A stretch of DNA of 64,000 nucleotides from Eledone cirrhosa (lineage: Eukaryota). The position numbers and the translations under genes were made by a program. This document shows positions 29,716-64,000 of this stretch, in pieces (the stretch's first letter is position 1; each line of letters starts with the position of its first letter). The notes beneath the pieces were generated by a model, which had not been told where the DNA came from, ran no database searches, and was given only the letters and a program-made list of their open reading frames with translations. The stretch is taken from NCBI GenBank assembly GCA_964016885.1, contig CAXHJY010000973.1, positions 607,914-671,913 of the forward strand, given 5' to 3'.

Positions 29716-29838
29716 TTATACTTTTCAGTTAGTTTAGCATGTGGGTGACTGATAGGTTACTAGGTAACCAGCTAGAAAGTTAATAGTTTATATTCTGTTA
29801 GCAGAACTGTATTGCAGTTGTAACTGTGATGTTTGGCT

Positions 29839-31496
29839 CTTAACAGATTGTTAGTGTCCACCTAACCCCTACAAGATGTTACGGTATGGTTAGTAATTGG
29901 TTCTTAACAGATTGTTAGGGTCCACCTAGCCCCTACAAGATGTTACGGTATGGTTAGTAATTGGTTCTTAACAGATTGTTAGGGTTCACCTAACCCCTAC
30001 AAGATGTTACGGTATGGTTAGTAATTGGTTCTTAACAGATTGTTAGTGTCCACCTAACCCCTACAAGATGTTACGGTATGGTTAGTAATTGGTTCTTATC
30101 AGATTGTTAGTGTCCACCTAACCCCTACAAGATGTTACGGTATGGTTAGTAATTGGTTCTTAACAGATTGTTAGTGTCCACCTAACCCCTACAAGATGTT
30201 ACGGTATGGTTAGTAATTGGTTCTTAACAGATTGTTAGGGTCCACCTAACCCCTACAAGATGTTACGGTATGGTTAGTAATTGGTTCTTAACAGATTGTT
30301 AGGGTCCACCTAACCCCTACAAGATGTTATGGTATGGCTAGTAATTGGTTCTTAACAGATTGTTAGGGTTCACCTAACCCCTACAAGATGTTACGGTATG
30401 GTTAGTAATTGGTTCTTATCAGATTGTTAGGGTCCACCTAGCCCCTACAAGATGCTACGGTGTGGTTAGTAATTGGTTCTTATCAGATTGTTAGGGTCCA
30501 CCTAACCCCTACAAGATGCTACGGTATGGTTAGTAATTGGTTCTTAACAGATTGTTAGGGTCCACCTAACCCCTACAAGACGCTGTGGTATGGTTAGTAA
30601 TTGGTTCTTAACAGATTGTTAGTGTCCACCTAACCCCTACAAGATGTTACGGTATGGTTAGTAATTGGTTCTTATCAGATTGTTAGGGTCCACCTAGCCC
30701 CTACAAGATGTTACGGTATGGTTAGTAATTGGTTCTTATCAGATTGTTAAGATCCACCTAACCCCTACAAGATGCTACGGTATGGTTAGTAATTGGTTCT
30801 TAACAGATTGTTAGGGTCCACCTAGCCCCTACAAGATGTTACGGTATGGTTAGTAATTGGTTCTTATCAGATTGTTAGGGTCCACCTAACCCCTACAAGA
30901 CGCTGTGGTATGGTTAGTAATTGGTTCTTATCAGATTGTTAGGGTCCACCTAGCCCCTACAAGATGTTACGGTACGGTGAGTAATTGGTTCTTATCAGAT
31001 TGTTAGGGTCCACCTAACCCCTACAAGATATTACGGTATGGTTAGTAATTGGTTCTTATCAGATTGTTAGGGTCCACCTAACCCCTACAAGATGTTACGG
31101 TATGGTTAGTAATTGGTTCTTAACAGATTGTTAGTGTCCACCTAACCCCTACAAGATGTTACGGTATGGTTAGTAATTGGTTCTTAACAGATTGTTAGGG
31201 TTCACCTAACCCCTACAAGATGTTACGGTATGGTTAGTAACTGGTTCTTATCAGATTGTTAGGGTCCACCTAACCCCTACAAGATGTTATGGTATGGTTA
31301 GTAATTGGTTAACAGATTGTTAGGGTCCACCTAACCCCAACAAGATGCTACGGTATGGTTAGTAATTGGTTCTTAACAGATTGTTAGGGTCCACCTAACC
31401 CCTACAAGATGCTGTGGTATGGTTAGTAATTGGTTCTCATCAGATTGTTAGGGTCCACCTAACCCCAACAAGATGTTACAGTATGGTTAGTAATTG
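29839..31496. repeat. 64-bp tandem repeat, ~26 copies
   Basis: Unit CTTAACAGATTGTTAGGGTCCACCTAACCCCTACAAGATGTTACGGTATGGTTAGTAATTGGTT. TAACAGATTG occurs at 29841, 29905 and onward. Confidence 0.98.
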
Positions 31497-37425: not shown

Positions 37426-38434
37426 ATGATATCACTGCTCTACACCAACACCAAAGCCCAAGTCATTACACCTGATGGGATGACAGAGTTCTTTGAGATA
37501 CTGGCTGGAGTGCTCCAGGGAGATACATTGGCTCCCTACCTTTTTATCATCGTAGTGGACTATTGTATGCGCCTTGCACTGGAGAAACACCAGGACTCTG
37601 GCTTTACTGTAGCACCGGCTCAGAGCAGGAGAGTTGGGGCGAAAAAGGTATTGGATGCTGAATTTGCCGACGACATAGTTTTGGTGACAAATACAGTGAA
37701 GGAGGCAGAGGATTTGATGCGGGAGGTTGAGACTGTGTCGATGAGTGTGGGGCTGAGAATGAATGAGACTAAAACAAAATATCTGGTAGAGAATGTTGAG
37801 AAGCCAGAGGGGATCACTAATGTTGGCGGGTAGCCGCTGGAATTGGTTGAGGACTTCCTGTATTTGGGAGCAAAGATTGGGAATACGGAAGATGATGTGG
37901 TTGAGAGGAAGAGCAAGGCCTGGGCGGCGTGTCACAGCTTGAGATCGGTGTGGCAGTCGGACCTTCGTAGAGACCTGAAAATCCGCCTCTTCATTGCTGT
38001 AGTGGAGTCTGTGCTGCTGTATGGGTCTGAGACTTGGACACTGACCAAGAGACTCACTCAGGTGGTGGATGGGTGCTACACGAGAATGCTGAGGATGGCT
38101 CTGAACATTAATCAGTATACACTGAGGATGAAAAACTCAGAGCTGTATGGGAGCATCCCAAAAGTCAGCTCAAAAGTGACACAGAGAAGACTGAGGTTGG
38201 CTGGACATGCTCACCGACATCCAGAGTTGACATTGCACTCAGTGCTCCTTTGGGAGCCCCTACATGGACACACTAGAAGAGGAAGACCAAGGTTAACATA
38301 TGTTGATGCCCTAAGGACAGACACTGGTCTGTTGGAGATGCAGGATATGGCAGCGATAATGAGGGACAGAGACCGCTGGAGAGAACTCGTCCATGGATCT
38401 CGGGAATTTTACCCGCCTTAGATAGATAGATAGA
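37426..38434 (+). mobile_element. 5'-truncated RTE-clade LINE (C-terminal half of reverse transcriptase) with one in-frame stop at 37831-37833 and a (TAGA)n tail
   Basis: Motifs GVLQGDTLAPYLF, EFADD, FLYLG, ESVLLYGSETW, RRLRLAGH, GRP and DRDRWR. ORFs 37426 and 37843 are in frame, and the terminal TAG runs into TAGATAGATAGA. Confidence 0.95.
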
Positions 38435-38446
38435 TATATATATATT

Positions 38447-38477
<31 letters not shown>

Positions 38478-38491
38478 AATATATATATATA

Positions 38492-38523
<32 letters not shown>

Positions 38524-39001
38524 AATATATATATATATAAATATATATATATATAAATATATATATATAAATATATATATATATAAATATATATATATAT
38601 AAATATATATATATATAAATATATATATATATAAATATATATATATATAAATATATATATATATAAATATATATATATATAAATATATATATATAAATAT
38701 ATATATATAAATATAAATATATATATATATAAATATATATATATATAAATATATATATATATAAATATATATATATATAAATATATATATATAAATATAA
38801 ATATATATAAATATAAATATATATATATATAAATATATATATATAAATATATATATATATAAATATATATATATATAAATATATATATATAAATATATAT
38901 ATATAAATATATAAATATATATATATATAAATATATATATATATAAATATATATATATAAATATATATATATAAATATATATATATAAATATATATATAT
39001 A

Positions 39002-39079
<78 letters not shown>

Positions 39080-39367
39080 TATATATATAAATATATATAT
39101 AAATATATATATATAAATATATATATATAAATATATATATATAAACAATTAAGTTAAAGATGTACATCCACATATGTATACTGAAATACTAGTATGCATA
39201 TGAATACACACACGTATACATATGTAGATGTACCGAGTTTTTCACTGGTCACTTTACTGTGAGTGTCCAGCTATTCTGTATGTAAACACACAGACAAACC
39301 GGTTTTTAGAGTCATACTGGTTTTTGAGGAAACACCTTTCCTCTATTCTCCAGAAAGCCAGGCAAGG

Positions 39368-39412
39368 AATATTGAACTAGTTTCGATGTTGTTACATCTC
39401 ATCAGCAATATT
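39368..39412 (-). ncRNA. Type I hammerhead ribozyme (copy 1)
   Basis: Minus strand reads AATATTG-CTGATGA-GATGT(AACA)ACATC-GAAAC-TA-GTT^CAATATT. Confidence 0.9.
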
Positions 39413-39833
39413 TACCTATCTTCCGGCCTCTCTAGAGAATCGTAAAAGCACATATCGTTATATGCTTTTTCTATGAAAATTAGTAGTGGGCAGACTAATT
39501 TGCATAGAGCGTGAGTACGTACCGGTTCAACGGAGACGATAAAAACAAATAACGAAACGAAATTAAATTTCGTTTCATTTGTAACTCACTTTTGTATGAC
39601 TGACGCTTAAACAATTAAGTTAAAGATGTACATCCACATATGTATACTGAAATACTAGTATGCATATGAATACACACACGTATACATATGTAGATGTACC
39701 GAGTTTTTCACTGGTCACTTTACTGTGAGTGTCCAGCTATTCTGTATGTAAACACACAGACAAACCGGTTTTTAGAGTCATACTGGTTTTTGAGGAAACA
39801 CCTTTCCTCTATTCTCCAGAAAGCCAGGCAAGG

Positions 39834-39878
39834 AATATTGAACTAGTTTCGATGTTGTTACATCTCATCAGCAATATT
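39834..39878 (-). ncRNA. Type I hammerhead ribozyme (copy 2)
   Basis: Same motif, +466 bp. Confidence 0.9.
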
Positions 39879-40299
39879 TACCTATCTTCCGGCCTCTCTA
39901 GAGAATCGTAAAAGCACATATCGTTATATGCTTTTTCTATGAAAATTAGTAGTGGGCAGACTAATTTGCATAGAGCGTGAGTACGTACCGGTTCAACGGA
40001 GACGATAAAAACAAATAACGAAACGAAATTAAATTTCGTTTCATTTGTAACTCACTTTTGTATGACTGACGCTTAAACAATTAAGTTAAAGATGTACATC
40101 CACATATGTATACTGAAATACTAGTATGCATATGAATACACACACGTATACATATGTAGATGTACCGAGTTTTTCACTGGTCACTTTACTGTGAGTGTCC
40201 AGCTATTCTGTATGTAAACACACAGACAAACCGGTTTTTAGAGTCATACTGGTTTTTGAGGAAACACCTTTCCTCTATTCTCCAGAAAGCCAGGCAAGG

Positions 40300-40344
40300 A
40301 ATATTGAACTAGTTTCGATGTTGTTACATCTCATCAGCAATATT
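40300..40344 (-). ncRNA. Type I hammerhead ribozyme (copy 3)
   Basis: Same motif, +932 bp. Confidence 0.9.
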
Positions 40345-40765
40345 TACCTATCTTCCGGCCTCTCTAGAGAATCGTAAAAGCACATATCGTTATATGCTTT
40401 TTCTATGAAAATTAGTAGTGGGCAGACTAATTTGCATAGAGCGTGAGTACGTACCGGTTCAACGGAGACGATAAAAACAAATAACGAAACGAAATTAAAT
40501 TTCGTTTCATTTGTAACTCACTTTTGTATGACTGACGCTTAAACAATTAAGTTAAAGATGTACATCCACATATGTATACTGAAATACTAGTATGCATATG
40601 AATACACACACGTATACATATGTAGATGTACCGAGTTTTTCACTGGTCACTTTACTGTGAGTGTCCAGCTATTCTGTATGTAAACACACAGACAAACCGG
40701 TTTTTAGAGTCATACTGGTTTTTGAGGAAACACCTTTCCTCTATTCTCCAGAAAGCCAGGCAAGG

Positions 40766-40810
40766 AATATTGAACTAGTTTCGATGTTGTTACATCTCAT
40801 CAGCAATATT
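40766..40810 (-). ncRNA. Type I hammerhead ribozyme (copy 4)
   Basis: Same motif, +1398 bp. Confidence 0.9.
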
Positions 40811-41231
40811 TACCTATCTTCCGGCCTCTCTAGAGAATCGTAAAAGCACATATCGTTATATGCTTTTTCTATGAAAATTAGTAGTGGGCAGACTAATTTG
40901 CATAGAGCGTGAGTACGTACCGGTTCAACGGAGACGATAAAAACAAATAACGAAACGAAATTAAATTTCGTTTCATTTGTAACTCACTTTTGTATGACTG
41001 ACGCTTAAACAATTAAGTTAAAGATGTACATCCACATATGTATACTGAAATACTAGTATGCATATGAATACACACACGTATACATATGTAGATGTACCGA
41101 GTTTTTCACTGGTCACTTTACTGTGAGTGTCCAGCTATTCTGTATGTAAACACACAGACAAACCGGTTTTTAGAGTCATACTGGTTTTTGAGGAAACACC
41201 TTTCCTCTATTCTCCAGAAAGCCAGGCAAGG

Positions 41232-41276
41232 AATATTGAACTAGTTTCGATGTTGTTACATCTCATCAGCAATATT
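41232..41276 (-). ncRNA. Type I hammerhead ribozyme (copy 5)
   Basis: Same motif, +1864 bp. Confidence 0.9.
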
Positions 41277-42096
41277 TACCTATCTTCCGGCCTCTCTAGA
41301 GAATCGTAAAAGCACATATCGTTATATGCTTTTTCTATGAAAATTAGTAGTGGGCAGACTAATTTGCATAGAGCGTGAGTACGTACCGGTTCAACGGAGA
41401 CGATAAAAACAAATAACGAAACGAAATTAAATTTCGTTTCATTTGTAACTCACTTTTGTATGACTGACGCTTAAACAATTAAGTTAAAGATGTACATCCA
41501 CATATGTATACTGAAATACTAGTATGCATATGAATACACACACGTATACATATGTAGATGTACCGAGTTTTTCACTGGTCACTTTACTGTGAGTGTCCAG
41601 CTATTCTGTATGTAAACACACAGACAAACCGGTTTTTAGAGTCATACTGGTTTTTGAGGAAACTAGTTCAATATTCCTTGCCTGGCTTTCTGGAGAATAG
41701 AGGAAAGGTGTTTCCTCAAAAACCAGTATGACTCTAAAAACCGGTTTGTCTGTGTGTTTACATACAGAATAGCTGGACACTCACAGTAAAGTGACCAGTG
41801 AAAAACTCGGTACATCTACATATGTATACGTGTGTGTATTCATATGCATACTAGTATTTCAGTATACATATGTGGATGTACATCTTTAACTTAATTGTTT
41901 AAGCGTCAGTCATACAAAAGTGAGTTACAAATGAAACGAAATTTAATTTCGTTTCGTTATTTGTTTTTATCGTCTCCGTTGAACCGGTACGTACTCACGC
42001 TCTATGCAAATTAGTCTGCCCACTACTAATTTTCATAGAAAAAGCATATAACGATATGTGCTTTTACGATTCTCTAGAGAGGCCGGAAGATAGGTA

Positions 42097-42141
42097 AATA
42101 TTGCTGATGAGATGTAACAACATCGAAACTAGTTCAATATT
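42097..42141 (+). ncRNA. Type I hammerhead ribozyme (inverted copy), predicted cleavage after 42134
   Basis: Stem I AATATTG(42097-42103)/CAATATT(42135-42141), CTGATGA 42104-42110, stem II GATGT/ACATC, GAAA 42125-42128, palindromic stem III ACTAGT, GUU cleavage triplet. Confidence 0.9.
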
Positions 42142-42654
42142 CCTTGCCTGGCTTTCTGGAGAATAGAGGAAAGGTGTTTCCTCAAAAACCAGTATGACTC
42201 TAAAAACCGGTTTGTCTGTGTGTTTACATACAGAATAGCTGGACACTCACAGTAAAGTGACCAGTGAAAAACTCGGTACATCTACATATGTATACGTGTG
42301 TGTATTCATATGCATACTAGTATTTCAGTATACATATGTGGATGTACATCTTTAACTTAATTGTTTAAGCGTCAGTCATACAAAAGTGAGTTACAAATGA
42401 AACGAAATTTAATTTCGTTTCGTTATTTGTTTTTATATATATATAAATATATATATATAAATATATATATATAAATATATAAATATATATATATAAATAT
42501 ATATATATAAATATATATATATAAATATATATATAAATATAAATATATATATAAATATATATATATAAATATAAATATATATATAAATATATATATAAAT
42601 ATATATATATATAAATATATATATAAATAAATATATATATAAATATAAATAAAT

Positions 42655-42705
<51 letters not shown>

Positions 42706-42722
42706 AATAAATATATATAAAT

Positions 42723-42753
<31 letters not shown>

Positions 42754-42760
42754 AATAAAT

Positions 42761-42791
<31 letters not shown>

Positions 42792-42800
42792 AATAAATAT

Positions 42801-42831
<31 letters not shown>

Positions 42832-42838
42832 AATAAAT

Positions 42839-42869
<31 letters not shown>

Positions 42870-42908
42870 AATATATATATATATAAATATATATATATAT
42901 AAATAAAT

Positions 42909-42939
<31 letters not shown>

Positions 42940-42946
42940 AATAAAT

Positions 42947-42977
<31 letters not shown>

Positions 42978-43007
42978 AATAAATATATATATATATAAAT
43001 ATATATG

Positions 43008-43041
<34 letters not shown>

Positions 43042-43042
43042 A

Positions 43043-43153
<111 letters not shown>

Positions 43154-43317
43154 AATATATATATATACAGTATTTTCCGTTGTGTTGTAATATAAATATT
43201 ACACACAGTAGATTATCAGCTCACGTAGAGTTTGCTCGACGGTTCCAGTTGTAGTTCCAAAGGTAATCCGGAGAAAAATAGAAAGATTTGAATGGATACA
43301 GTTTAGTTGAAAGGAAT

Positions 43318-49302: not shown

Positions 49303-49649
49303 ATCATCATCATCATCATCATTTCATTTTACGTCCGCTTTTCCCTGCTTGCAAGGGTGGGACGGGAACTGATTTTGGCTTGATTTCTACAGCTGGATGC
49401 CCTTCCTAACACCAACCTCATTTACAGTGAGTGCTGGGTGTTTTTTTGCCGTGGTACCTCCACGACCACTTTGCAGTGGAATGATAGGGACCCCAGTCCC
49501 TATCATCTCATTTCTACAGCTGAGTAAACTGGAGCAATGTGAAATAAAGTGCCTTGCTCAAGGAAACAACACATCACCCGGTCTGAGAATTGAACTCAAC
49601 CTTTCGATTGCAAGCCCAATGCTCTAACCACTAAGCCATGTGCCTCCAT
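49303..49649 (-). mobile_element. SINE family C, full length
   Basis: tRNA-like head, CORE-like block, internal hairpin, RTE-like tail and (TGA)n. Confidence 0.92.
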
Positions 49650-52855: not shown

Positions 52856-53197
52856 ATCATCATCATCATTCATTTTACGTCCGCTTTTCCCTGCTTGCAA
52901 GGGTGGGACAGGAACTGATTCTGGCTTGATTTCTACAGCTGGATGCCCTTCCTAACACCAACCTCATTTACAGTGAGTGCTGGGTGCTTTTTTGTTGTGG
53001 CACCTCCACGACCACTTTGCAGTGGAATGATAGGGACCCCAGTCCCTATCATCTCATTTCTCCAGCTGAGTAAACTGGAGCAATGTGAAATAAAGTGTCT
53101 TGCTCAAGGAAACAACACATCACCTGGTCTGAGAATTGAACTCACAACCTTTCGATTGCAAGACCAATGCTCTAACCACTAAGCCATGTGCCTCCAT
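52856..53197 (-). mobile_element. SINE family C, full length
   Basis: Near-identical to 49303-49649. Confidence 0.92.
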
Positions 53198-54926: not shown

Positions 54927-56158
54927 GTGGGACAAAGCACACCTCTAAAATTGTCAAGAAGGCTGAGGGTGTCTTAGCATCACTCAGCAAGACATTTGTC
55001 AGCCGCTCTCCAGCTATCTATTTAAAGCTGTATATAGCTATGGTGTGTCCACACTTTGAATTTACATCACCAGTCTGGAACCCCTATCTTGTTCAGAACA
55101 TTGACCGCCTTGCAACTGTTCAGAGACGTGCAACCAAATGAATACCCTCCATCTTGCTTCCCTGGGCATGGATACATTGAAGCTCCGACGTCTGGCAACT
55201 GACTTGGTAAACACCCACAATATTATTGACCATCTTGCCAACAACAACCCTGAGCACCTTTGTGAATTCCATATGTCTAACACATGTCTACAAAGTCAGA
55301 AAACAGCACGGTTCCTATGACTTTCGGAAACATTTTTTCATGCTCAGAGTTGCTGAAGCATGGAACAAACTACCTGCATCAGTTGTTAGCTGTCGAGACA
55401 CTGCATCCTTTAAAACCTCCATGGAACAAACTACCTGCCTCAGTTGTTAGCTGTCGAGACATTGCATCCTTTAAAACCTCCATGGAACAAACTCCCTGCA
55501 TCAGTTGTTAGCTGTCGAGACACTGCATCCTTTAAAACCTCCATGGAACAAACTCCCTGCATCAGTTGTTAGCTGTCGAGACACTGCATCCTTTAAAACC
55601 TCCATGGAACAAACTACCTGCATCAGTTGTTAGCTGTCGAGACACTGCATCCTTTAAAACCTCCATGGAACACACTCTCTGCATCAGTTGTTAGCTGTTG
55701 AGACACTGCATCCTTTAAAACCTCCATGGAACAAACTACCTTCATCAGTTATTAGCTGTCGAGACACTGCATCCTTTAAAATCTCCATGGAACAAACTAC
55801 CTGCATCAGTTGTTAGCTGTCGAGACACTGCATCCTTTAAAACCTCCATGGAACAAACTACCTGCATCAGTTGTTAGCTGTCGAGACACTGCATCCTTTA
55901 AAACCTCCATGGAACAAACTACCTGCATCAGTTGTTAGCTGTAGAGGCACTGCATCCTTTAAAACCTCCATGCTTCCTGAGATTCTTCAACACTACACCT
56001 AATATTCCCCCTCCATACACACACACACACATGTATATCATGACTCATACACTATTCACTTCCCTGACATTTGTATATTATTTTATGTACTATACATGCA
56101 CCTTTGATGAGTTGTAGTGCACCTGAACACTGCACACAATAATTTTGATTATTATTTT
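54927..56158 (+). mobile_element. Degenerate CR1-like LINE 3' fragment (RT C-terminus and 3' end)
   Basis: Frameshifted motifs LYIAMVCPHFEFTSPVWNPY..NIDRLATVQRRATK, TLKLRRLATDL and RKHFFMLRVAEAWNKLPASVV...SFK, typical of CR1-group ORF2 C-termini. Confidence 0.85.
55359..55972. repeat. 61-bp tandem repeat, 10 copies, inside the CR1-like LINE
   Basis: Unit CATGGAACAAACTACCTGCATCAGTTGTTAGCTGTCGAGACACTGCATCCTTTAAAACCTC starts at 55359, 55420 and onward to 55908. Confidence 0.98.
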
Positions 56159-57307: not shown

Positions 57308-60300
57308 TATGTGTATATGTATGTGTGAGGAAGTTAGGTGTGTGTGTATATGTATGTGTGAGGAAGTTAGGTGAGTGTGTGTATATGTATGTGTGAGGAA
57401 GTTAGGTGTGTGTGTGTATATGTATGTGTGAGGAAGTTAGGTGTGTGTGTGTATATGTATGTGTGAGGAAGTTAGGTGGGTGTGTGTGTATATGTGTGAG
57501 GAAGTTAGGTGTGTGTGTGTATATGTATGTGTGAGGAAGTTAGGTGAGTGTGTGTATATGTATGTGTGAGGAAGTTAGGTGTGTGTGTATATGTATGTGT
57601 GAGGAAGTTAGGTGTGTGTGTATATGTATGTGTGAGGAAGTTAGGTGTGTGTGTGTATATGTATGTGTGAGGAAGTTAGGTGTGTGTCTGTGTATATGTA
57701 TGTGTGAGGAAGTTAGGTGTGTGTGTATATGTATGTGTGAGGAAGTTAGGTGTGTGTGTATATGTATGTGTGAGGAAGTTAGGTGTGTGTGTGTATATGT
57801 ATGTGTGAGGAAGTTAGGTGAGTGTGTGTATATGTATGTGTGAGGAAGTTAGGTGTGTGTGTGTATATGTATGTGTGAGGAAGTTAGGTGTGTGTGTATA
57901 TGTATGTGTGAGGAAGTTAGGTGTGTGTGTGTATATGTATGTGTGAGGAAGTTAGGTGAGTGTGTGTATATGTATGTGTGAGGAAGTTAGGTGAGTGTGT
58001 GTATATGTATGTGTGAGGAAGTTAGGTGAGTGTGTGTATATGTATGTGTGAGGAAGTTAGGTGAGTGTGTATATGTATGTGTGAGGAAGTTAGGTGTGTG
58101 TGTATATGTATGTGTGAGGAAGTTAGGTGTGTGTGTATATGTATGTGTGAGGAAGTTAGGTGTGTGTGTGTATATGTATGTGTGAGGAAGTTAGGTGTGT
58201 GTGTATATGTATGTGTGAGGAAGTTAGGTGTGTGTGTGTATATGTATGTGTGAGGAAGTTAGGTGAGTGTGTGTATATGTATGTGTGAGGAAGTTAGGTG
58301 AGTGTGTGTATATGTATGTGTGAGGAAGTTAGGTGAGTGTGTGTATATGTATGTGTGAGGAAGTTAGGTGAGTGTGTGTATATGTATGTGTGAGGAAGTT
58401 AGGTGAGTGTGTATATGTATGTGTGAGGAAGTTAGGTGTGTGTGTATATGTATGTGTGAGGAAGTTATGTGTGTGTGTGTATATGTATGTGTGAGGAAGT
58501 TAGGTGTGTGTGTGTATATGTATGTGTGAGGAAGTTAGGTGAGTGTGTGTATATGTATGTGTGAGGAAGTTAGGTGAGTGTGTGTATATGTATGTGTGAG
58601 GAAGTTAGGTGAGTGTGTGTATATGTATGTGTGAGGAAGTTAGGTGAGTGTGTATATGTATGTGTGAGGAAGTTAGGTGAGTGTGTGTATATGTATGTGT
58701 GAGGAAGTTAGGTGTGTGTGTGTATATGCATGTGTGAGGAAGTTATGTGTGTGTGTGTATATGTATGTGTGAGGAAGTTAGGTGAGTGTGTGTATATGTA
58801 TGTGTGAGGAAGTTAGGTGTGTGTGTGTATATGTATGTGTGAGGAAGTTAGGTGAGTGTGTATATGTATGTGTGAGGAAGTTAGGTGTGTGTGTATATGT
58901 ATGTGTGAGGAAGTTATGTGTGTGTCTGCGTATATGTATGTGTGAGGAAGTTAGGTGTGTGTGTGTATATGTATGTGTGAGGAAGTTAGGTGTGTGTGTA
59001 TATGTGTGTGTGAGGAAGTTATGTGTGTGTCTGTGTATATGTATGTGTGAGGAAGTTAGGTGTGTGTGTATATGTATGTGTAAGGAAGTTATGTGTGTGT
59101 GTGTATATGTATGTGTGAGGAAGTTATGTGTGTGTGTGTATATGTATGTGTGAGGAAGTTATGTGTGTGTGTGTATATGTATGTGTGAAGAAGTTAGGTG
59201 TGTGTGTATATGTATGTGTGAAGAAGTTATGTGTGTGTCTGTGTATATGTATGTGTGAGGAAGTTAGGTGTGTGTGTGTATATGTATGTGTGAGGAAGTT
59301 AGGTGTGTGTGTGTATATGTATGTGTGAGGAAGTTAGGTGTGTGTGTATATGTATGTGTGAGGAAGTTAGGTGTGTGTCTGTGTATATGTATGTGTGAGG
59401 AAGTTATGTGTGTGTGTGTATATGTATGTGTGAGGAAGTTATGTGTGTGTGTGTATATGTATGTGTGAGGAAGTTAGGTGTGTGTGTGTATATGTATGTG
59501 TGAGGAAGTTAGGTGTGTGTGTGTATATGTATGTGTGAGGAAGTTAGGTGTGTGTGTGTATATGTATGTGTGAAGAAGTTAGGTGTGTGTCTGCGTATAT
59601 GTATGTGTGAGGAAGTTAGGTGTGTGTGTGTATATGTATGTGTGAGGAAGTTAGGTGTGTGTGTATATGTATGTGTGAGGAAGTTAGATGTGTGTGTATA
59701 TGTATGTGTGAGGAAGTTAGGTGTGTGTGTATATGTATGTGTGAGGAAGTTATGTGTGTGTGTATATGTATGTGTGAGGAAGTTATGTGTGTGTGTATAT
59801 GTATGTGTGAGTAAGTTAGGTGTGTGTGTATATGTATGTGTGAGGAAGTTAGGTGAGTGTGTATATGTATGTGTGAGGAAGTTAGGTGTGTGTGTATATG
59901 TATGTGTGAGGAAGTTATGTGTGTGTGTGTATATGTATGTGTGAGGAAGTTAGATGTGTGTCTGTGTATATGTATGTGTGAGGAAGTTAGGTGTGTGTGT
60001 TTATATGTATGTGTGAGGAAGTTAGGTGTGTGTGTATATGTATGTGTGAGGAAGTTAGGTGTGTGTGTGTATATGTATGTGTGAGGAAGTTAGGTGTGTG
60101 TGTGTATATGTATGTGTGAGGAAGTTAGGTGTGTGTGTATATGTATGTGTGAGGAAGTTATGTGTGTGTGTGTATATGTATGTGTGAGGAAGTTATGTGT
60201 GTGTCTGTGTATATGTATGTGTGAGGAAGTTAGGTGTGTGTGTATATGTATGTGTAAGGAAGTTATGTGTGTGTGTGTATATGTATGTGTGAGGAAGTTA

Positions 60301-63300
60301 TGTGTGTGTGTGTATATGTATGTGTGAAGAAGTTAGGTGTGTGTGTATATGTATGTGTGAAGAAGTTAGGTGTGTGTCTGTGTATATGTATGTGTGAGGA
60401 AGTTAGGTGTGTGTGTGTATATGTATGTGTGAGGAAGTTAGGTGTGTGTGTGTATATGTATGTGTGAGGAAGTTAGGTGTGTGTGTATATGTATGTGTGA
60501 GGAAGTTAGGTGTGTGTCTGTGTATATGTATGTGTGAGGAAGTTATGTGTGTGTGTGTATATGTATGTGTGAGGAAGTTATGTGTGTGTGTATATGTATG
60601 TGTGAGGAAGTTAGGTGTGTGTGTATATGTATGTGTGAGGAAGTTAGGTGTGTGTGTGTATATGTATGTGTGAGGAAGTTAGGTGTGTGTGTGTATATGT
60701 ATGTGTGAGGAAGTTAGGTGTGTGTGTATATGTATGTGTGAGGAAGTTAGGTGTGTGTCTGTGTATATGTATGTGTGAGGAAGTTATGTGTGTGTGTGTA
60801 TATGTATGTGTGAGGAAGTTATGTGTGTGTGTGTATATGTATGTGTGAGGAAGTTAGGTGTGTGTGTGTATATGTATGTGTGAGGAAGTTAGGTGTGCGT
60901 GTATATGTATGTGTGAGGAAGTTAGGTGTGTGTCTGTGTATATGTATGTGTGAGGAAGTTATGTGTGTGTGTGTATATGTATGTGTGAGGAAGTTATGTG
61001 TGTGTGTGTATATGTATGTGTGAGGAAGTTAGGTGTGTGTGTGTATATGTATGTGTGAGGAAGTTAGGTGTGTGTGTGTATATGTATGTGTGAGGAAGTT
61101 AGGTGTGTGTGTGTATATGTATGTGTGAAGAAGTTAGGTGTGTGTCTGCGTATATGTATGTGTGAGGAAGTTAGGTGTGTGTGTGTATATGTATGTGTGA
61201 GGAAGTTAGGTGTGTGTGTATATGTATGTGTGAGGAAGTTAGATGTGTGTGTATATGTATGTGTGAGGAAGTTAGGTGTGTGTGTATATGTATGTGTGAG
61301 GAAGTTATGTGTGTGTGTATATGTATGTGTGAGGAAGTTATGTGTGTGTGTATATGTATGTGTGAGTAAGTTAGGTGTGTGTGTATATGTATGTGTGAGG
61401 AAGTTAGGTGAGTGTGTATATGTATGTGTGAGGAAGTTAGGTGTGTGTGTATATGTATGTGTGAGGAAGTTATGTGTGTGTGTGTATATGTATGTGTGAG
61501 GAAGTTAGATGTGTGTCTGTGTATATGTATGTGTGAGGAAGTTAGGTGTGTGTGTTTATGTATGTGTGAGGAAGTTAGGTGTGTGTGTGTATATGTATGT
61601 GTGAGGAAGTTAGGTGTGTGTGTATATGTATGTGTGAGGAAGTTAGGTGTGTGTGTGTATATGTATGTGTGAGGAAGTTAGGTGTGTGTGTATATGTATG
61701 TGTGAGGAAGTTAGGTGTGTGTGTGTATATGTATGTGTGAGGAAGTTAGGTGTGTGTGTATATGTATGTGTGAGGAAGTTAGGTGTGTGTGTGTATATGT
61801 ATGTGTGAGGAAGTTAGGTGTGTGTGTTTATGTATGTGTGAGGAAGTTAGGTGTGTGTGTGTATATGTATGTGTGAGGAAGTTAGGTGTGTGTGTATATG
61901 TATGTGTGAGGAAGTTAGGTGTGTGTGTGTATATGTATGTGTGAGGAAGTTAGGTGTGTGTGTGTATATGTATGTGTGAGGAAGTTAGGTGTGTGTGTAT
62001 ATGTATGTGTGAGGAAGTTAGGTGTGTGTGTGTATATGCATGTGTGAGGAAGTTATGTGTGTGAGTATATGTATGTGTGAGGAAGTTAGGTATGTGTGTG
62101 TATATGTATGTGTGAGGAAGTTAGGTGTGTGTGTGTATATGTATGTGTGAGGAAGTTAGGTGTGTGTGTATATGTATATGTGAGGAAGTTAGGTGGGTGT
62201 GTGTATATGTATGTGTGAGGAAGTTATGTGTGTGTGTGTATATGTATGTGTGAGGAAGTTAGGTGTGTGTGTATATGTATGTGTGAGGAAGTTAGATGTG
62301 TGTGTATATGCATGTGTGAGGAAGTTAGGTGTGTGTGTATATGTATGTGTGAGGAAGTTAGATGTGTGTGTATATGCATGTGTGAGGAAGTTATGTGTGT
62401 GTGTGTATATGTATGTGTGAGGAAGTTAGGTGTGTGTGTGTATATGTATGTGTGAGGAAGTTAGGTGTGTGTGTATATGTATGTGAGAAAGTTAGATGTG
62501 TGTGTATATGTATGTGTGAGGAAGTTAGGTGTGTGTGTGTATATGTATGTGTGAGGAAGTTAGGTGTGTGTGTATATGTATGTGTGAGGAAGTTAGGTGT
62601 GTGTGTGTATATGTATGTGTGAGGAAGTTAGGTGTGTGTCTGTGTATATGTATGTGTGAGGAAGTTAGGTGTGTGTGTTTATGTATGTGTGAGGAAGTTA
62701 GGTGTGTGTGTGTATATGTATGTGTGAGGAAGTTAGGTGTGTGTGTATATGTATGTGTGAGGAAGTTAGGTGTGTGTGTGTATATGTATGTGTGAGGAAG
62801 TTAGGTGTGTGTCTGTGTATATGTATGTGTGAGGAAGTTATGTGTGTGTGTGTATATGTATGTGTGAGGAAGTTAGGTGGGTGTGTATTTGTATGTGTGA
62901 GGAAGTTAGGTGTGTGTGTGTGTATATGTATGTGTGAGGAAGTTAGGTGTGTGTGTATATGTATGTGTGAGGAAGTTATGTGTGTGTGTGTATATGTATG
63001 TGTGAGAAAGTTATGTGTGTGTGTGTATATGTATGTGTGAGGAAGTTATGTGTGTGTGTGTATATGTATGTGTGAGGAAGTTAGGTGTGTGTGTATATGT
63101 ATGTGTGAGGAAGTTAGGTGTGTGTGTGTATATGTATGTGTGAGGAAGTTAGGTGTGTGTGTATATGTATGTGTGAGGAAGTTAGGTGTGTGTGTGTATA
63201 TGTATGTGTGAGGAAGTTAGGTGTGTGTGTGTATATGTATGTGTGAGGAAGTTAGGTGTGTGTGTATATGTATGTGTGAGGAAGTTAGGTGTGTGTGTGT

Positions 63301-64000
63301 GTATATGTATGTGTGAGGAAGTTAGGTGTGTGTGTATATGTATGTGTGAGGAAGTTAGGTGTGTGTGTGTATATGTATGTGTGAGGAAGTTAGGTGTGTG
63401 TGTATATGTATGTGTGAGGAAGTTAGGTGTGTGTGTGTATATGTATGTGTGAGGAAGTTAGGTGTGTGTGTGTATATGTATGTGTGAGGAAGTTAGGTGT
63501 GTGTGTATATGTATGTGTGAGGAAGTTAGGTGAGTGTGTATATGTATGTGTGAGGAAGTTAGGTGTGTGTGTATATGTATGTGTGAGGAAGTTATGTGTG
63601 TGTGTGTATATGTATGTGTGAGGAAGTTAGATGTGTGTCTGTGTATATGTATGTGTGAGGAAGTTAGGTGTGTGTGTTTATGTATGTGTGAGGAAGTTAG
63701 GTGTGTGTGTGTATATGTATGTGTGAGGAAGTTAGGTGTGTGTGTATATGTATGTGTGAGGAAGTTAGGTGTGTGTGTGTATATGTATGTGTGAGGAAGT
63801 TAGGTGTGTGTCTGTGTATATGTATGTGTGAGGAAGTTATGTGTGTGTGTGTATATGTATGTGTGAGGAAGTTAGGTGTGTGTGTGTATATGTATGTGTG
63901 AGGAAGTTAGGTGAGTGTGTATATGTATGTGTGAGGAAGTTAGGTGTGTGTGTATATGTATGTGTGAGGAAGTTATGTGTGTGTGTGTATATGTATGTGT
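57308..64000. repeat. 33-37-bp GT-rich satellite GTATATGTATGTGTGAGGAAGTTAGGT(GT)n, ~190 copies; runs off the right edge
   Basis: Direct periodicity. Length variation is confined to the (GT)n segment. Confidence 0.99.

What the first reader, a model, noticed from the sequence alone, without database searches (positions are those of the whole stretch)
40937..42436. Fold-back inversion beside the ribozyme cleavage site; permuted 3' ends suggest a circular template
Seen: the array switches strand through a 5-bp GAAAC microhomology (41659-41663), creating a palindrome with ~727-bp arms (40937-41663 and 41710-42436) and a 46-bp spacer. The inverted arm starts at the hammerhead's own GAAAC-TAGTT, 5-10 nt before the predicted cleavage site. 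In ribozyme-sense terms the two arms point outward. Their 3' ends lie at two different T-rich positions of the monomer (..AATTGTTTA at 39142 and ..TTTGTTTTTAT at 42436), each merging into (TA)n. Established knowledge: head-to-head inverted segments are characteristic of Penelope-like insertions. Inference: two target-primed, rolling-circle reverse transcription events on a circular or multimeric RNA were joined by microhomology.
Basis: partly seen in the sequence, partly recalled or inferred. Interest (0 to 1): 0.78.

Follow-up and report, generated by a model that had tools for sequence, protein, structure and literature searches.

The report
Two-armed retrozyme with fixed Penelope ends
This mirror-image repeat is one young copy of an abundant non-coding jumping element carrying a predicted self-cutting RNA motif; its copies end at two fixed sites, one per arm, which likely marks a Penelope-type enzyme copying one RNA, probably sometimes a circle, from both sides of a DNA break.

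Summary
The sequence is as described: 466-bp units, arms of 5.41 and 1.67 units, a 5-nt GAAAC overlap and a type I hammerhead. Both headline inferences fail.

The ends are not permuted. 139 of 148 outer ends in the genome fall at two fixed sites about 70 nt apart, and 77 of 78 two-armed copies resolved at these sites use one of each. The junction is not tied to the cleavage site: 10 of 174 junction ends lie within 10 nt of it, against 7.8 expected.

Arms always point outward, (TA)n is the target, 12-13-bp duplications flank 5 non-TA sites, and junctions are enriched for microhomology. This is the Penelope 'tail' footprint on a non-LTR retrozyme.

The two arms of a copy share one haplotype. A-to-G changes (12 versus 1 T-to-C) recur in every unit, and one hyper-edited unit found at a single locus alternates in both arms. 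This favours copying round an RNA circle but does not prove it; this copy is uninformative. No partner element was found and no reads span the junction. The scan reached a similar reading earlier on other DNA of this genome.

The parts
39142..41663 (-). Left arm: 5.41 identical 466-bp retrozyme units, RNA sense on the minus strand; outer 3' end at family site A (phase 228-233, where phase 1 = first base after the predicted cut); junction end at phase 42
41659..42436 (+). Right arm: 1.67 units, RNA sense on the plus strand; junction end at phase 457; outer 3' end at family site B (phase 300-302)
41659..41663 (.). 5-nt microhomology GAAAC shared by both arms (strand switch)
   Evidence: neither arm extends beyond it; 31 of 49 clean junctions in the family have 2 nt or more, 17.7% expected
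42097..42141 (+). Type I hammerhead: 7-bp stem I, CUGAUGA, 5-bp stem II, GAAA, 2-bp palindromic stem III; predicted cut after GUU at 42134|42135
   Evidence: HH9 match 42086-42157, E 9.5e-6, below gathering score; core conserved, compensatory change in stem II; activity untested
39352..41287 (-). Five more hammerhead copies, one per unit (39352-39423, 39818-39889, 40284-40355, 40750-40821, 41216-41287)
42368..42436 (+). 69-nt 'tail' between sites A and B, terminal only on this arm; holds a predicted 13-bp hairpin (phases 263-291)
38422..39141 (.). Left (TA)n-type microsatellite target
42437..43167 (.). Right (TA)n-type microsatellite target; a target duplication cannot be read here

Best explanation
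This is one young, two-armed insertion of a non-coding 466-bp hammerhead repeat (non-LTR retrozyme) whose arms end at the family's two fixed sites, likely written in by a Penelope-type reverse transcriptase/endonuclease acting in trans. Shown: arms point outward, one ends at site A and the other at site B about 70 nt further 3', the target is (TA)n, duplications of 12-13 bp flank non-TA sites, junction phases are random, and both arms carry one haplotype. Inferred mechanism: the endonuclease makes a staggered cut of about 10-13 nt with 3' overhangs. Each overhang primes one cDNA on the same RNA molecule, one at A and one at B. Both enzymes run through the ribozyme site for a variable number of units, which would need strand displacement, and stop at random. 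The two cDNA ends are joined by end-joining repair through 1-8 nt of microhomology or with short inserted bases. The template is likely a ligated RNA circle in at least part of the family (about 0.65); for this copy a circle and an uncut multimer cannot be told apart.
For: Ends: 139 of 148 at A or B, 5.8% expected. Pairing: of 79 two-armed copies with both ends in view, 68 AB, 1 AA, 0 BB and 10 with one end elsewhere (p 1e-19 against a free choice of site). Extending cut-off loci and adding one new locus gave 9 more AB and 1 with an off-site end. Orientation in 136 clusters: 85 '-+', 4 '--+', 45 single-armed, 2 '++', none tail-to-tail. Target: 185 of 198 A/B ends abut (TA)n (40 of the fetched stretches were picked on one TA end); 12-13-bp duplications at L032, L044, L047, L148 and L179. 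Junctions: 49 of 87 clean, mean overlap 2.3 nt against 0.74 by chance; 38 with inserted bases. Same template: in 44 loci the two arms differ by a median 0.002, against 0.028 between loci. RNA origin: sample-private variants fixed in all of 3 or more units are A>G 12 versus T>C 1 (p 0.0016), while singletons are 62 versus 59. Locus L185/L196 has a unit whose differences from its neighbour are 28 of 34 A>G; it sits at units 0 and -2 of both arms and nowhere else in the assembly (6 of 6 exact matches). Enzyme: RT plus GIY-YIG ORFs are present, and 3 of 3 two-armed GIY-YIG loci inspected also end in (TA)n with one longer end. Literature: two internal RT start sites that define the tail, and extension of both strands in vitro (PMC11167929); inverted 5'-truncated copy, one-sided tail and (TA)n bias (PMC8557442 passages).
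Against: No partner Penelope element shares sequence with the unit: 0 of 22 GIY-YIG loci beyond low-complexity or 13-nt matches, out of 10,597 candidates. In vitro, the anole enzyme showed no strand difference in start site and primed without homology (PMC11167929), so the strict A/B pairing is not explained by that work. Arrays change after insertion: higher-order periods in L043, L064 and L180, and minor variants shared between arms out of register in L059, L146, L171 and L172. Uniform units can therefore also arise by expansion and conversion. L045 and L077 carry a variant only in the last unit of both arms, which fits a mixed multimer and not a monomer circle. The triple A>G haplotype of L097 looked private but has 71 copies in 7 places, so 'private' means private among 136 sampled clusters. 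With a two-unit threshold the bias weakens to 14 versus 4 (12 versus 4 loci, p 0.077). In L185 the outermost edited unit of the short arm carries only the edits at phases 31-121. No reads or contigs span this junction.
Confidence: 0.74

Rival explanations
1. Same two-site Penelope-type priming, but the template is always a linear, uncut multimeric transcript of a genomic array; uniform or alternating edited units come from the source array or from duplication and conversion after insertion.
For: The hammerhead has a 2-bp stem III, a type that cuts poorly as a monomer in axolotl (PMC7229834 passages; the likeness is my inference). Uncut RNA was the main substrate in vitro (PMC11167929). L045 and L077 show last-unit-only variants in both arms. 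Post-insertion periods are common. An edited haplotype founded a sub-lineage.
Against: The hyper-edited unit of L185 exists at one locus only, yet repeats with period 2 at the outer end of both arms. A linear template edited once would need matching duplications in both arms or a lost source array. No pile-up of 5' ends at any phase, such as a transcript start would give.
Confidence: 0.17
2. Fold-back self-priming: one cDNA is made, folds on itself at the junction and is copied back to give the second arm (proposed for Penelope head-to-head repeats in PMC3846280).
For: Slight excess of near-symmetric junctions: 12 of 87 within 17 nt, 6.5 expected (p 0.03; some of these are alignment artefacts). 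Two GIY-YIG loci (L141, L143) are near-perfect palindromes.
Against: Phase differences are otherwise near uniform (22 of 87 within 50 nt, 18.9 expected). Arm lengths are uncorrelated (Spearman 0.12, n 67). In L045 and L185 shared variants line up from the outer ends, not from the junction. It gives no reason for one A and one B end.
Confidence: 0.05
3. One reading: the ribozyme cut sets the junction, and priming occurs at any T-rich position of a circle (permuted ends).
For: In this copy the right arm starts 10 nt before the predicted cut.
Against: Junction ends are uniform, 10 of 174 within 10 nt (p 0.26); ends are fixed at two sites, 139 of 148.
Confidence: 0.02
4. Assembly artefact from a chimeric or fold-back read, or a later DNA inversion in a satellite.
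For: No independent contig spans this junction; the contig is a small one (C1000).
Against: 89 of 136 clusters are two-armed, with different junctions but the same end rule. Target duplications are present. The two flanks of this copy are not mirror images.
Confidence: 0.02

Closest known systems
Metazoan non-LTR retrozymes (Cervera and de la Pena 2020, PMC7229834: passages and part 4 of 6 with the Discussion read; Li, Clavereau and Pollet 2026, 10.64898/2026.07.22.740005: part 1 of 5 and passages read)
   Same: Short non-coding tandem unit, type I hammerhead in each unit, low G+C (36%), dispersed arrays, target duplications longer than 4 bp, co-occurrence with Penelope-like elements. Both papers propose mobilisation by such elements from circular RNA.
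   Different: The unit is at the long end (466 nt against about 170-400 nt). The main texts do not describe inverted two-armed insertions, fixed ends or tails (word searches). Expression, cleavage and circles were shown there and are untested here.
Endonuclease-bearing Penelope-like elements (Frangieh 2024, PMC11167929: parts 1-2 of 4 read; Craig 2021, PMC8557442, and Arkhipova 2013, PMC3846280: passages read)
   Same: Inverted 5'-truncated copy joined head to head, a tail at one end only, two internal RT start sites, AT-rich or (TA)n targets, 8-10-bp duplications in the rotifer, hammerhead motif.
   Different: No ORF (longest stop-free stretch 60 codons). The tail is about 70 nt rather than 30-40. 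Both arms are multi-unit. The tail is not optional: one A and one B end in 77 of 78, whereas no strand difference in start site was seen in vitro.
L1 twin priming and the proposed dual priming (Meyer 2010, PMC2837659: passages read)
   Same: Two primings from the two sides of a staggered cut, outward-pointing arms, target duplication, microhomology at the inner junction.
   Different: In twin priming the arms are non-overlapping parts of one mRNA and the second start is a variable internal site. Here both starts are fixed and the arms copy the same sequence; neither arm stops at the other's start more often than chance (11 and 6 of 67, 7.3 expected each).

Membership tests
Metazoan non-LTR retrozyme | Short tandem units, each with a type I hammerhead | tested here: met
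   Core differs in 1 of 1408 locus-majority cells against 1432 of 59554 elsewhere; stem II shows a two-sided A-U/U-A swap in 57 versus 48 fetched records. The Rfam score is below the gathering cut-off.
Metazoan non-LTR retrozyme | Non-coding, G+C under 50% | tested here: met
   G+C 36%; longest stop-free stretch 60 codons.
Metazoan non-LTR retrozyme | Dispersed mobile copies with target duplications longer than 4 bp | tested here: met
   2,603 exact matches to one 30-nt core variant; 12-13-bp duplications at 5 non-TA sites.
Metazoan non-LTR retrozyme | Self-cleavage of the transcript | not testable with these tools
   Predicted from the motif only.
Metazoan non-LTR retrozyme | Expressed as linear and circular RNA | tested here: inconclusive
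   One public run of unknown kind (X1) holds the unit and its head-to-tail joint as contigs; contigs cannot tell a circle from a tandem. Strand-biased A>G shows passage through RNA.
Penelope-type insertion | Head-to-head inverted 5'-truncated copy | tested here: met
   89 of 136 clusters two-armed, none tail-to-tail.
Penelope-type insertion | Two internal start sites giving a one-sided tail | tested here: met
   Sites A and B about 70 nt apart; 77 AB, 1 AA, 0 BB.
Penelope-type insertion | AT-rich or microsatellite target | tested here: met
   185 of 198 ends (partly selected).
Autonomous Penelope-like element | ORF with RT and GIY-YIG endonuclease | tested here: not met
   No ORF in the unit; such ORFs lie elsewhere in the genome.
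Non-autonomous derivative of a named Penelope family | Sequence shared with the partner's pseudo-LTR or tail | tested here: inconclusive
   None in 22 of 10,597 candidate loci; the top 40 hits of a tail search were all 100%-identical copies of the repeat itself.
L1-type twin priming | Arms are adjacent, non-overlapping parts of one RNA | tested here: not met
   Arms overlap in sequence; no adjacency above chance.

The most novel reading that the evidence does not exclude
A Penelope enzyme dimer docks on one small RNA circle and gives each of its two fixed start sites to one side of the DNA cut; the two subunits then reverse-transcribe round the same circle, so RNA edits are written into every unit of both arms. 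The one-sided Penelope 'tail' and the head-to-head repeats would be the obligatory trace of this asymmetric double priming, not optional by-products.
Probability: 0.45. Interest if true: 0.76.

Novelty: new variant of a known kind. Interest (0 to 1): 0.56.

Why it matters
How Penelope-like elements make their tandem/inverted insertions and one-sided tails is stated as open in PMC8557442 and PMC11167929. Copying of retrozyme circles into tandem cDNA is put forward as a hypothesis in PMC7229834. A family with thousands of very young copies gives a sharp rule (one A end, one B end, same RNA, random stop) and two defined RNA sites that can be tested in the existing in vitro system. The repeated A-to-G marks also show RNA edits becoming heritable DNA. 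This single copy is an ordinary member of its family.

Tried and rejected
Junction clustering at the cleavage site: rejected. Permuted ends: rejected. Fold-back as the general rule and twin-priming adjacency: rejected.

L097 as proof of a circle: all 20 units of its two arms are identical and carry three A>G changes, but the haplotype lies in 7 places, so it was dropped as proof for that insertion. An apparent six-unit period in L053 and L060 was a painting artefact.

Partner search: no homology with 22 GIY-YIG loci; the tail query returned only copies of the repeat.

Reads: my run search included (TA)n flank, so most of the 24 listed runs are probably false. Of 4 runs laid, 3 laid nothing and X1 gave contigs of the unit but none across the junction. 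That is no evidence for or against the junction.

Rfam at gathering level finds no hammerhead. Two target-duplication hits (L037, L116) were off-register in low-complexity DNA and were dropped; L085 (10 bp) is kept as weak. Short second arms were read with motifs chosen after seeing the data: 15 complementary, 1 same, 25 no call among 41, so this is weak. Some inserted-base lengths and the phase-133 calls are artefacts of unmodelled indels. One search had an overlap-filter bug, fixed; one search crashed and was rerun.

Paper searches listed no paper on two-armed retrozyme insertions or on a strict pairing of start sites. Supplements were not seen (Fig. S9 of PMC7229834, Figs S1-S2 of PMC11167929, those of the 2026 preprint) and may bear on this.

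Full report
1. Observation. A 466-bp unit is repeated 5.4 times without a mismatch at 39142-41663. The inverted arms 40937-41663 and 41710-42436 are 727 nt, 100% complementary and 46 nt apart. Read as RNA sense, the left arm is 2522 nt on the minus strand and the right arm 778 nt on the plus strand; they overlap by GAAAC and neither extends further. Each unit holds a type I hammerhead (Rfam HH9, E 9.5e-6, below the gathering score) with 7-bp stem I, 5-bp stem II and a 2-bp palindromic stem III. I number the unit from the first base after the predicted cut (phase 1 = 41669). The junction ends are at phases 42 and 457 and the outer ends at 233 and 302. The flanks are not mirror images of each other.

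2. The family. One 30-nt variant of the ribozyme core has 2,603 exact matches in the genome. The site-B end followed by (TA)6 has 1,239 forward-strand matches, so about 2,500 insertions is my inference. I fetched stretches chosen in four ways (unit search, scan of core matches along the start of C1, picked on one end, three-unit search) and catalogued 136 clusters, this copy included. The ribozyme looks conserved: core positions differ in 1 of 1408 locus-majority cells against 1432 of 59554 elsewhere, stem II has a two-sided swap, and the cut triplet is GUU or GUC. The unit has no ORF. Cleavage and expression are untested.

3. The ends are fixed, not permuted. Among loci not picked on their ends, 139 of 148 outer ends fall at phases 222-236 (site A) or 294-305 (site B); 5.8% is expected. 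Of 79 two-armed copies with both ends in view, 68 have one A and one B, 1 has two A, none has two B, and 10 have one end elsewhere. Extending cut-off loci and adding one new locus gave 9 more AB and 1 with an off-site end; 4 stayed cut off and 2 remained single-armed. That makes 77 of 78. Orientation is always outward: 89 two-armed clusters, none tail-to-tail. 185 of 198 A/B ends abut (TA)n (partly selected), and five non-TA sites carry 12-13-bp duplications including 1-3 nt of end microhomology.

4. The junction is not set by the ribozyme. The 174 junction ends of 87 junctions are uniform round the unit (Rayleigh p 0.76; chi-square p 0.61). 10 lie within 10 nt of the cut (7.8 expected) and 3 within 5 nt (4.1 expected). 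This also argues against a cut linear monomer as template, which would pile ends at phase 1. 49 junctions are clean, with a mean overlap of 2.3 nt against 0.74 by chance; 38 have inserted bases, often copies of nearby sequence, though some lengths are alignment artefacts. Joining by polymerase-theta-type repair is my recalled reading, not tested. The two junction phases are nearly independent (22 of 87 within 50 nt, 18.9 expected), with a slight excess of very close pairs (12 within 17 nt, 6.5 expected). Fold-back can explain a minority at most.

5. One RNA for both arms. In 44 loci with both arms covering the unit, the arms differ by a median 0.002 against 0.028 between loci; the own partner is closest in 25, tied in 8 and not closest in 11. 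Of 32 variants seen in one sampled locus only and fixed in all of 3 or more units, 12 are A>G and 1 is T>C on the RNA strand (p 0.0016; 10 loci versus 1). Singletons are balanced at 62 versus 59. That bias is the mark expected from A-to-I editing of the template (established knowledge; the enzyme is inferred). Locus L185/L196 is the clearest case. It has a unit that differs from its neighbour at 34 places, 28 of them A>G. This unit stands at positions 0 and -2 from the outer end in both arms and again at -5 and -7 in the long arm, and nowhere else in the assembly. The register runs from the outer ends, not from the junction. A two-unit circle copied from both sides, later shuffled by recombination, is the simplest reading.

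6. Results against a circle. Arrays are reworked after insertion: higher-order periods (L043, L064, L180) and minor variants shared between arms out of register (L059, L146, L171, L172). L045 and L077 have a variant in the last unit only of both arms, which fits a mixed multimer. The L097 haplotype proved to be a sub-lineage in 7 places. The A>G bias weakens at a two-unit threshold (14 versus 4). The outermost edited unit of the short arm of L185 is only partly edited. This window's own copy has seven identical units of a haplotype shared with other loci, so it cannot decide the question. I put a circle for at least part of the family at about 0.65.

7. The enzyme. The genome has many GIY-YIG loci (10,597 candidates, 150 scored). 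All 5 long ORFs scanned match RT, and 3 of them also match GIY-YIG in Pfam. Three two-armed loci of this kind that I inspected (L141, L143, L144) also end in (TA)n with one end about 45-65 nt longer. None of the 22 loci examined shares sequence with the unit, so the partner is unknown.

8. Comparison. The element meets the testable features of a metazoan non-LTR retrozyme (PMC7229834; passages and Discussion). That paper and the 2026 preprint propose mobilisation by Penelope-like elements from circles but do not describe these insertion structures in the text I saw. The inverted copy, the one-sided tail and the (TA)n bias are known for Penelope-like elements (PMC8557442; PMC3846280). The tail has been traced to two internal start sites in vitro (PMC11167929). 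What I did not find in print (searches; supplements unseen) is the strict one-A-one-B rule, the evidence that both arms come from one RNA in register, and edited units repeated in both arms. Passages of PMC9977147 and PMC13282606 added nothing on this. Earlier notes of this scan reached a like reading for this and sister families; the A>G test was prompted by one of them, and the numbers here are my own.

9. Verdict. A real, ordinary member of a young retrozyme family with a Penelope insertion footprint. New variant of a known kind; interest 0.56.

Noticed in passing
window 37429-38418 (+): 3' fragment of a LINE-type reverse transcriptase with one in-frame stop (Pfam RVT_1, E 3e-11), ending in a short (TAGA)n run that leads into the (TA)n tract hit by the retrozyme. 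It has no GIY-YIG match and is not taken as the partner.
   Followed up: partly
L185/L196 = G000:C2:95687873-95695159: Two-armed array with a hyper-edited unit (23 of 40 A read G in about 125 nt against its neighbour) alternating with unedited units in both arms; unique in the assembly.
   Followed up: yes
L123:1290-3250: A related family with about 470-bp units (66-75% identity in parts) and its own hammerhead lies right beside a copy of this family.
   Followed up: no
L141:1349-6518 and L143:3260-6525: Penelope-type RT/GIY-YIG sequence as near-perfect multi-kb palindromes in (TA)n with a one-sided tail; the near symmetry differs from most retrozyme junctions.
   Followed up: partly
L083+L157+L158+L211 = G000:C1:81846872-81880713: One arm has grown to about 70 units while the other has 2; shows later expansion of an insertion into a satellite.
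   Followed up: no
L122:5170-5234: About 70 nt of unrelated G+C-rich sequence is captured between the two arms at the junction.
   Followed up: no
L048, L084 (second cluster): Two copies end at an off-site phase and run into (ATC)n instead of (TA)n.
   Followed up: no
window 1-29243, 29833-31496, 55359-55972, 57310-64000: Unrelated satellites with periods of 30, 64, 61 and 35 bp; tRNA-like SINE heads at 49584-49638 and 53129-53186.
   Followed up: no
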